A stretch of DNA of 64,000 bases from Mobula hypostoma (lineage: Eukaryota), in contig NC_086097.1 of NCBI RefSeq assembly GCF_963921235.1, positions 54,996,001-55,060,000 on the forward strand, in the 5' to 3' direction. A program made the translations under genes and the position numbers. Below the pieces are notes generated by a model, which saw nothing but the letters and a program-made list of their open reading frames with translations, did not search any database and was not told the DNA's origin. Of the stretch, positions 54,495-55,433 are shown piece by piece; the first letter of the stretch is position 1; every line of letters starts with the position of its first letter.

Positions 54495-55433
54495 GTTGGC
54501 CACCTCCAACGGGATCCCACCACTAAGCACATCTTTCCTCCTCCCCCCCCGCTTTCCGCAGGGATCGCTCCCTATGCGACTCCCTTGTCCATTCGTCCCC
54601 CCCATCCCTCCCCACTGATCTCCCTCCTGGCACTTATCCTTGTAAGCAGAACAAGTGCTACACATGCCCTTACACTTCCTCCCTTACCACCATTCAAGGC
54701 CCCAGACAGTCCTTCCAGGCGAGGTGACACTTCACCTGTGAGTCGGCTGGGGTGATATACTGCGTCCGGTGCTCCCGATGTGGCCTTTTATATATTGGCA
54801 AGGCCCGACGCAGACTGGGAGACCGCTTTGCTGAACACCTACGCTCTGTCTGCCAGAGAAAGCAGGATCTCCCAGTGGCCACACATTTTAATTCCACATC
54901 CCATTCTGACATGTCTATCCATGGCCTCCTCTACTGTAAAGATGAAGCCACACTCAGGTTGGAGGAACAACACCTTATATTCCGTCTGGGTAGCCTCCAA
55001 CCTGATGGCATGAACATCGACTTCTCTAACTTCCGCTAGGCCCCACCTCCCCTTCGTACCCCATCCATTATTTATTTATATACACACACATTCTTTTTCT
55101 CTCTCTCCTTTTTCTCCCTCTGTCCCTCTCACTATACCCCTTGCCCATCCTCTGGGTTTTAACCCCCCCTCCCCCTTTTCCTTCTCCCTGGGCCTCCTGT
55201 CCCATGTTCCTCTCATATCCCTTTTGCCAATCACCTGTCCAGCTCTTGGCTCCATCCCTCCTCCTCCTGTCTTCTTCTATCATTTTGGATCTCCCCCTCC
55301 CCCTTTCAAATCTCTTACTAGCTCTTCCTTCAGTTAGTCCTGACGAAGGGTCTCGGCCCGAAACGTCGACTGTACCTCTTCCTAGAGATGCTGCCTGCCC
55401 TGCTGCGTTCACCAGCAACTTTGATGTGTGTTG
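54495..55433 (+). mobile_element. Penelope-like element, right arm (inverted relative to the left)
   Basis: HLQRDPTTKHIFP...VIYCVRCSRCGLLYIGKARRRLGDRFAEH...GMNIDFSNFR*; closely similar to the reverse complement of the left arm. Confidence 0.9.
55335..55372 (+). ncRNA. Minimal type I hammerhead ribozyme (Penelope-associated)
   Basis: tAGTC-CTGACGA-a-GGGT(ctcg)GCCC-GAAA-C-GTC^GACTg: intact CUGANGA and GAAA cores, stem I AGTC/GACT, stem II, loopless palindromic stem III; predicted cleavage after 55367. Confidence 0.8.

What the first reader, a model, noticed from the sequence alone, without database searches (positions are those of the whole stretch)
55335..55372. Intact minimal hammerhead ribozyme with a loopless palindromic stem III
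Seen: AGTC CTGACGA a GGGT ctcg GCCC GAAAC GTC GACT, with all core nucleotides present and an extra A after A9. Stem III reduces to the palindrome ACGU, which cannot close as a monomer. Established: Penelope-like elements carry such minimal type I hammerheads, reported to cleave as dimers. Inference: this copy is catalytically competent when paired with a second copy. The motif is invisible to ORF-based annotation.
Basis: partly seen in the sequence, partly recalled or inferred. Interest (0 to 1): 0.7.

Follow-up and report, generated by a model that had tools for sequence, protein, structure and literature searches.

The report
Penelope retroelement's minimal hammerhead ribozyme
This is an intact copy of the small self-cutting RNA motif that Penelope-type jumping genes are already known to carry, left by a truncated insertion in an intron of the ATG14 gene on the strand that the gene does not transcribe, so it is ordinary and likely idle.

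Summary
The motif is as described: core intact, extra A after A9, loopless ACGU stem III, predicted cut after C55367. A strict descriptor finds it and one twin (52839-52876, minus strand), and nothing in 400 shuffles. It lies 301 nt behind a GIY-YIG endonuclease frame of a 5'-truncated, Neptune-like Penelope element. The same motif follows 48 of 64 related endonucleases in metagenome contigs, with compensatory stem changes between lineages. The commonest form there equals the published Neptune min-HHR.

'Competent as a dimer' is untested and doubtful in this locus. The copy is antisense to the host ATG14 pre-mRNA. Its twin is on the other strand, so there is no partner in cis. Folding favours inactive forms, and published activity is low or needs protein.

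Side result: both copies and about 380 nt of unrelated DNA sit inside one 14-bp target-site duplication, with the Penelope 'tail' on one arm only. This arrangement is published for rotifers. The scan has noted this motif before, on other DNA of this genome and in other genomes. Verdict: new member of a known kind, low interest.

The parts
55336..55371 (+). Minimal type I hammerhead, copy B (the finding); predicted cut after C55367
   Evidence: sequence; descriptor; covariance model
54499..55433 (+). Copy B: 5'-truncated Penelope-like element (linker, endonuclease, pseudo-LTR), no 3' tail
   Evidence: tblastn with relatives; loose ends at 54499 and 55433; comparison with copy A
54551..55039 (+). 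[quoted passage not shown]
   Evidence: Pfam PF01541 E 2.6e-4, 21.7 bits, just under the 22.6 cut-off; translation; tblastn
52840..52875 (-). Minimal hammerhead, copy A (twin); one change, C to U at 52854, turns a stem II G-C pair into G-U; predicted cut after C52844; sense to the host gene
52742..54111 (-). Copy A: inverted 5'-truncated element, with a microsatellite expansion at 53122-53612 in its pseudo-LTR
52742..52777 (-). 36-nt Penelope 'tail', present on arm A only
   Evidence: loose-end consensus behind 55433 matches it; described
54115..54498 (.). Spacer of non-element DNA between the arms; the right part resembles other LINE-like repeats in the window; likely copied from another locus
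   Evidence: self-search; contigs run on into other DNA left of 54115 in 3 of 4 runs
52728..52741 (+). Left copy of the 14-bp target-site duplication
   Evidence: exact match, only two occurrences in the window
55434..55447 (+). Right copy of the 14-bp target-site duplication
52097..56642 (-). Intron of the host ATG14 gene that holds the whole insertion (flanking exons 56685-56643 and 52096-52015)
   Evidence: exon candidates; five exons read in one open frame; PDB ATG14 matches E 2e-23 and 3e-36; Pfam PF10186 E 8e-4, below cut-off

Best explanation
The motif is the standard minimal hammerhead in the pseudo-LTR of a Penelope-like retrotransposon, likely of the Neptune type, carried here as a passenger in a truncated copy that lies antisense in an ATG14 intron and is likely never cut there. 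Shown: the motif, its place 301 nt behind the endonuclease stop on the element's sense strand, its recurrence behind related endonucleases, the inverted twin and the target-site duplication. Inferred from the literature: in a working element, tandem copies give an RNA with two motifs; the two ACGU palindromes and the crossed stem I arms form a double hammerhead that cuts after GUC, slowly and probably with help from the element's own protein, to trim or circularise the precursor. Inferred for this locus: one insertion event, two-ended, put two truncated cDNAs head to head with a piece of unrelated DNA between them. Copy B enters RNA only if something transcribes the plus strand, and it would need a partner in trans. 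The host pre-mRNA carries copy A's motif and copy B's complement, which are predicted to pair with each other.
For: (motif real). (GIY-YIG with CCHH-type cysteines, CX4CX2C linker; relatives carry RT-like sequence upstream); 48 of 64 metagenome loci with at least 300 nt after the endonuclease have the core (at most 2 mismatches in 14 fixed positions) on the sense strand, 0 of 64 antisense, 0 of 43 in a control stretch 900-1200 nt away; 83.8% of cells paired against 78.0% shuffled, 22 cells with two-sided changes against 3.9, 0/500 shuffles reach either; the published Acropora Neptune min-HHR equals the commonest metagenome motif; many contigs match only from 55336 (4 of 4 runs) or only up to 55373 (listed for 3 of 4 runs), so other subfamilies share the motif and not its flanks. 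(ATG14 on the minus strand). (TSD, tail); all 38 nt of motif A pair with the complement of motif B in the minimum-energy fold of the 2.7-kb pre-mRNA stretch.
Against: No cleavage or transcription data at all. The clade (Neptune or Nematis) was not tested by a tree, and the Pfam scores are just under cut-off. In one search most rows are one family; the number of pairs with two-sided change (5) is reached by 59/500 shuffles, the outer stem I pair fails in 37 of 42 rows, and the C15.2-G16.2 palindrome shows no compensatory change. A TATA-like word at 55077-55082 in the pseudo-LTR could drive plus-strand transcription through the motif, so 'idle' is not proven. With a very large family, partners in trans may be abundant.
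Confidence: 0.88

Rival explanations
1. One reading: this copy is an active ribozyme once paired with a second copy, and it cuts RNA at this locus, with the partner supplied in trans by transcripts of other family members.
For: Core intact. None of the 40 difference rows shown, of 313, falls inside 55336-55371, so the copy probably equals the family majority. The family is very large: 247,956 contig pieces laid in one run. Min-HHR dimers and trimers show some cleavage.
Against: Antisense to ATG14; twin on the other strand; no tandem array. The double-hammerhead fold evaluates at -16.7 kcal/mol against -34.1 for the best two-strand fold, and stem I has under 1% probability in 236 nt of context (nearest-neighbour energies ignore Mg2+ and core contacts, and three metagenome motifs show the same gap). 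No cleavage without protein and no read ends at the site for the Anolis element. My odds that an engineered tandem dimer shows some cleavage in high Mg2+ are about even; the figure below is for cutting in cells at this locus.
Confidence: 0.08
2. The motif is kept in the family mainly as a fold or handle for the element's protein near the sites where reverse transcription starts, and cutting is secondary.
For: Both 3' ends of the family lie close behind it, 66 and 102 nt after the predicted cut. In the Anolis element, hammerhead mutants insert normally in vitro. Naiad elements thrive without hammerheads.
Against: The catalytic core positions are the best-kept columns among the 48 metagenome motifs, though the motifs were selected on that core. 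In Anolis the mapped protein-binding region is in the ORF start, and core mutants abolish cleavage as expected of a real ribozyme. This rival concerns the family and is compatible with the best explanation for this copy.
Confidence: 0.15
3. A domesticated intronic ribozyme that regulates ATG14 processing, like the conserved amniote intronic hammerheads.
For: It lies in an intron of a conserved gene, and motif A is in the sense strand.
Against: The finding's copy is antisense. The insertion is young: contigs of organisms C and E enter the right flank after 65 and 157 unmatched letters, so they lack arm B there, while organisms A and B have it. The sense twin has a weakened stem II (-3.3 against -8.9 kcal/mol) and is predicted to be buried in a duplex. 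No Rfam hammerhead family matches.
Confidence: 0.02
4. A chance match to a short consensus.
For: The bare pattern CTGANGA..GAAA occurs 15 times against 6.5 expected; folding z-score is weak.
Against: 0 of 400 shuffles give a strict hit; fixed position behind related endonucleases; independent covariance model hit.
Confidence: 0.005

Closest known systems
Minimal hammerheads (min-HHR) of metazoan Penelope-like elements, Cervera & De la Pena 2014 (PMC4209133), in particular the Acropora digitifera Neptune motif of its supplement
   Same: [quoted passage not shown] The Neptune example has the same core letters, a 4-bp stem II and a 4-nt loop.
   Different: [quoted passage not shown] The Schistosoma families have a 7-8 bp stem II. 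The host is probably a ray; the four cartilaginous-fish terms searched did not occur in the two supplementary files searched (one further file not searched).
Head-to-head Penelope insertion units, e.g. Pen2a_Av and pLTR-framed captured DNA in Adineta vaga (Arkhipova et al. 2013, PMC3846280); Craig et al. 2021 (bioRxiv 10.1101/2021.04.23.441226)
   Same: Inverted 5'-truncated arm, 30-40 bp tail on one arm only, one TSD round the whole unit, unrelated non-coding DNA captured between arms.
   Different: A vertebrate example; TSD 14 bp against 8-10 bp; both arms keep an endonuclease piece and differ at 43 of 823 aligned positions.
Poseidon element of Anolis carolinensis (PAc) and its protein-assisted hammerhead, Frangieh et al. 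2024 (PMC11167929)
   Same: Hammerhead in the pseudo-LTR followed by two alternative 3' ends that define the tail.
   Different: PAc is Penelope/Poseidon clade; this element has the CX4CX2C linker given for Neptune and Nematis. Nothing was tested biochemically here.
Non-LTR retrozymes (bioRxiv 10.64898/2026.07.22.740005)
   Same: Type I hammerhead of Penelope origin; found in one chondrichthyan genome.
   Different: Retrozymes are tandem arrays with a motif in each unit; here there is no tandem array and the motif follows an endonuclease frame.

Membership tests
min-HHR of metazoan PLEs | Conserved core C3 U G A N G A9 ... G12 A A A15.1 ... U16.1 H17 in type I order | tested here: met
min-HHR of metazoan PLEs | One unpaired nucleotide between 9 and 10.1, and a G10.1-C11.1 pair | tested here: met
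   A55347; G55348-C55359; features listed
min-HHR of metazoan PLEs | Palindromic 15.2-16.2, no or tiny loop 3 | tested here: met
   ACGT 55363-55366
min-HHR of metazoan PLEs | Short stem I without a defined loop 1 | tested here: met
   4 Watson-Crick pairs plus one U-G
min-HHR of metazoan PLEs | Located in the pseudo-LTR of a PLE, sense to the ORF | tested here: met
   301 nt after the GIY-YIG stop; same arrangement in 48 of 64 related loci
min-HHR of metazoan PLEs | Covariation in stems I and II | tested here: met
   Between lineages: 22 two-sided cells against 3.9 shuffled, 0/500; 5 pairs, 59/500. Within this genome's family not measured; the twin has a one-sided G-C to G-U change.
min-HHR of metazoan PLEs | Inactive as monomer, self-cleaves (weakly) as dimer | not testable with these tools
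   Only energies computed; they favour inactive folds. No raw-read RNA run was offered.
EN+ Penelope-like element | C-terminal GIY-YIG endonuclease with two Cys between GIY and YIG | tested here: met
   feature stated
EN+ Penelope-like element | Telomerase-like RT upstream in the same ORF | tested here: inconclusive
   Lost by 5' truncation in both arms. Relatives 77-93% identical carry upstream sequence with a YIDD motif; its reading as the RT catalytic motif is recalled, no RT profile was run on them.
EN+ Penelope-like element | Inverted truncated arm, optional 30-40 bp tail on one end, TSD | tested here: met
   described
Neptune clade | CX2-5CxxC zinc-finger linker between RT and EN (shared with Nematis) | tested here: met
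   CX4CX2C in both arms; definition
Neptune clade | Placement by RT phylogeny | not tested
   No RT in the window copies; no tree built
Non-LTR retrozyme | Tandem repeat with a hammerhead in consecutive units | tested here: not met
Rfam hammerhead families (canonical and conserved intronic) | Match at gathering score | tested here: not met

The most novel reading that the evidence does not exclude
The head-to-head architecture is a built-in off switch. In the host pre-mRNA the antisense arm is transcribed first and zips up the sense-strand hammerhead of the other arm, so two-armed Penelope insertions can be tolerated in introns where a lone sense-strand hammerhead would cut the pre-mRNA. This predicts, genome-wide, a shortage of intact sense-oriented lone motifs in introns but not of two-armed units, which would be indirect evidence that these ribozymes cut in vivo. 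The same unit would also record one insertion built from two different element templates plus DNA taken from another locus.
Probability: 0.08. Interest if true: 0.5.

Novelty: new member of a known kind. Interest (0 to 1): 0.12.

Why it matters
As it stands it matters little: it is one of very many copies of a motif class described in 2014. Two modest uses remain. First, whether Penelope minimal hammerheads cut in vivo is still open, and a large, young ray family with intact motifs is good material for a strand-bias or cleavage-end test. Second, the unit is a clean vertebrate example of a two-ended Penelope insertion with captured DNA inside one TSD.

Tried and rejected
No whole genome is held, so family copies could not be counted or aligned. 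Rfam: no hammerhead hit. Viral contigs: 1 weak locus of 35 candidate stretches, not used. Sequencing runs: no RNA holder listed on record and no raw reads, so no evidence either way on expression or cut ends. Contig depth cannot rank parts of the element, so I do not use it that way; my notebook entry that the motif bin is deepest in all four runs is wrong (deepest in 2 of 4, second in the other 2). Folding the 3' region gave no structure beyond shuffles. The strict descriptor found only 14 of 60 metagenome loci with at least 400 nt downstream; the other loci mostly hold decayed motifs or none. Of 506 confirmed metagenome stretches the tool kept the best 80; 16 of these had under 300 nt after the endonuclease and were left out. 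The covariance model used 40 of the 48 motifs (8 exact duplicates dropped). Rejected: tandem retrozyme; cis dimer of copies A and B (opposite strands); two independent insertions (one TSD encloses both); spacer as a locally inverted piece of the intron (no spacer contig adds depth on the right flank, and the TSD is direct). The empty site was not seen directly: the left flank was not in the stretch laid, and the unmatched letters of the C and E contigs were not printed. Luense et al. (RNA Biol, dimers) is not held; I saw only its title and a review's summary. Look-ups of earlier scan notes by look-alike sequence returned nothing.

Full report
Observation. A descriptor demanding core, both stems and a palindromic stem III finds 2 sites in the window, this one and a twin on the minus strand (C3 at 52871), and no site in any of 400 dinucleotide shuffles. 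A covariance model that I built from 40 non-window motifs finds both sites, at 33.3 and 30.5 bits, with the next match at 15.1 bits (E-values rough).

Surroundings. The motif lies 301 nt after the stop of a frame that matches Pfam GIY-YIG (E 2.6e-4, 21.7 bits, cut-off 22.6). [quoted passage not shown] Craig et al. give these as marks of Penelope-like endonucleases and of the Neptune and Nematis clades (passages). The closest proteins are from Mobula hypostoma and Hypanus sabinus, 93% and 88% identical over more than 90% of the query, so the host is probably a ray (inference). The element piece runs from 54499 to 55433 (copy B). A second piece, copy A, runs on the minus strand from 54111 to 52742. 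The arms differ at 43 of 823 aligned positions, 13 of them CpG-type. Both lie in one intron of ATG14, which is on the minus strand: five exons with AG/GT ends read in one open frame, and two match solved ATG14 chains at E 2e-23 and 3e-36. The finding's motif is therefore antisense to the host pre-mRNA, and the twin is sense.

One insertion. An exact 14-bp repeat abuts the outer end of each arm (52728-52741 and 55434-55447) and occurs nowhere else in the window. Arm A has 36 extra 3' bases that arm B lacks; contigs that run on past 55433 show the same letters. This is the Penelope signature: inverted truncated arm, a 30-40 bp tail on one end, one TSD (passages of bioRxiv 2021.04.23.441226 and PMC3846280). 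Between the arms lie about 380 nt of non-element DNA. In contigs of three of four runs this spacer continues leftwards from 54115 into DNA that is not arm A's first letters (804, 1100 and 493 letters), and in one run rightwards past 54489 for 556 letters. I infer that it was copied from another locus. The arm A/spacer junction and the empty site were not covered by that call. Organisms A and B have arm B's junctions (the right-hand one with only 24 and 29 letters inside the element, below the tool's 31-letter mark for a bridge). Organisms C and E enter the right flank after 65 and 157 unmatched letters, so they appear to lack it. Flank differences from the window are 6 of 496, 18 of about 465 and 33 of about 461 letters for B, C and E. 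At 7 listed sites where the family is polymorphic (other letter in 23-42% of depth in run X1), arms A and B differ at 4, which hints at two templates. Only 40 of 313 difference rows were shown, so this is weak. DNA captured between pseudo-LTRs inside a TSD is published for Adineta vaga.

Relatives. A protein-anchored scan of metagenome contigs confirmed 506 stretches and returned the best 80, 37-49% identical. Of the 64 with at least 300 nt after the endonuclease, 48 carry the core with at most 2 mismatches in 14 fixed positions, on the sense strand, 109-219 nt downstream. None has it on the antisense strand, and none of 43 has it in a control stretch (the template fixed the spacing, so motifs of other sizes were missed). 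On these 48 plus the two window copies (42 distinct rows), 83.8% of cells pair against 78.0% in shuffles and 22 cells change on both sides against 3.9 (0/500 for both), and all slid controls are far lower. Limits: one family dominates; the two-sided changes come from about four lineages; the count of pairs with such changes (5) is reached by 59/500 shuffles; the outer stem I pair is not general; the palindrome shows no compensatory change. The commonest metagenome motif is letter for letter the Acropora digitifera Neptune min-HHR in the 2014 supplement. In the ray runs, hundreds of contigs match only from 55336 on (812, 707, 615, 624 records) or only up to 55373 (519, 501, 491; listed for 3 of 4 runs), so other subfamilies keep the motif and change its flanks.

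How it works. Established for the class (PMC4209133, parts 1-2 of 4 read): the monomer is inactive; two motifs form a double hammerhead through the palindrome; dimers and trimers cleave weakly; the proposed role is processing of precursor RNA. For the Anolis Poseidon element (PMC11167929, parts 1-2 of 4) cleavage needed added protein, core mutants inserted normally in vitro, and no RNA-seq reads ended at the cut site. Computed here: the monomer's best fold pairs U4-C7 of the core with the bases round the cut site; the double hammerhead evaluates at -16.7 kcal/mol against -34.1 for the best two-strand fold; stem I has under 1% probability in context. Three metagenome motifs show a gap of the same sign, so this is a property of the class under this energy model and does not mark the copy as defective. 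For this locus, copy B has no partner in cis and no shown transcript. The host pre-mRNA contains motif A and the complement of motif B, and all 38 bases pair with each other in the predicted fold. I conclude that the copy is an intact passenger, probably idle. This last step is inference.

Known or new. Every sequence feature that defines the 2014 min-HHR is met; activity could not be tested. It is not a retrozyme (no tandem array) and not a conserved intronic ribozyme (young insertion, antisense). Searches for 'hammerhead ribozyme' + 'Penelope' + 'shark' (the one hit uses 'shark' only for the motif's shape) and for Neptune/pLTR/cartilaginous terms found no paper on this ray family. One supplementary file of the 2014 paper was not searched, preprint supplements are closed, and Luense et al. 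is not held, so a listing may exist. A 2026 preprint reports hammerhead retrozymes in one chondrichthyan (part 1 of 5 and passages). I saw passages only of PMC6765202 and PMC6155905; other papers only as listings. The scan's own unchecked notes describe the same motif and the same two-armed insertions elsewhere in this genome and in other genomes. I read them after my own tests and count them as leads, not support.

Verdict. Observation confirmed; interpretation partly supported; new member of a known kind; interest 0.12.

Noticed in passing
window 52728-55447: One 14-bp target-site duplication encloses both inverted arms and a 380-nt spacer that looks copied from another locus; the arms may come from two templates.
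   Followed up: partly
window 53122-53612: A (GGA)n and (AGAA)n expansion of about 490 nt in arm A's pseudo-LTR where arm B has a short CT-rich stretch.
   Followed up: no
window 8951-9430: An older, decayed head-to-head pair of a related family: a minus-strand end at 9060-8951 with core substitutions, and a plus-strand piece from the endonuclease end (9133-9190) to a motif cut off after stem II (9403-9430).
   Followed up: partly
window 21338-21427, 60391-60447 and 14957-15321: Further weak remnants of Penelope-like 3' ends and of an endonuclease frame.
   Followed up: no
window 55077-55082: TATA-like word just after the endonuclease stop, 258 nt before the core; could be a pseudo-LTR promoter firing antisense to ATG14. 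Untested.
   Followed up: no
window 48367-56928, minus strand: Five exons of ATG14 (63, 43, 82, 238, 230 nt) in one open frame.
   Followed up: yes
L057, about 1860 and 2630 nt after the endonuclease: Two inverted minimal hammerheads with a U3-A8 core and a 5-6 bp stem II, the variant described for Schistosoma.
   Followed up: no
L002, L015, L058, L059, L062, L066, L077 (motif column 7): A subfamily with U4 replaced by C (9 of 48 motifs), an apparently inherited core change.
   Followed up: no
L043, about 700 nt after the endonuclease, antisense: A canonical-looking type I hammerhead with 6-bp stem I and a longer palindromic stem III.
   Followed up: no
window 57787-57952: Three copies of a 53-nt tandem repeat.
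   Followed up: no
P0003, P0004, P0012, P0015, P0017, P0018: Ray gene models named as host proteins (mucin-2, a kinase, chitinase, NLR, ABHD14A) contain pieces of this element's ORF: mis-annotation or exonisation.
   Followed up: no
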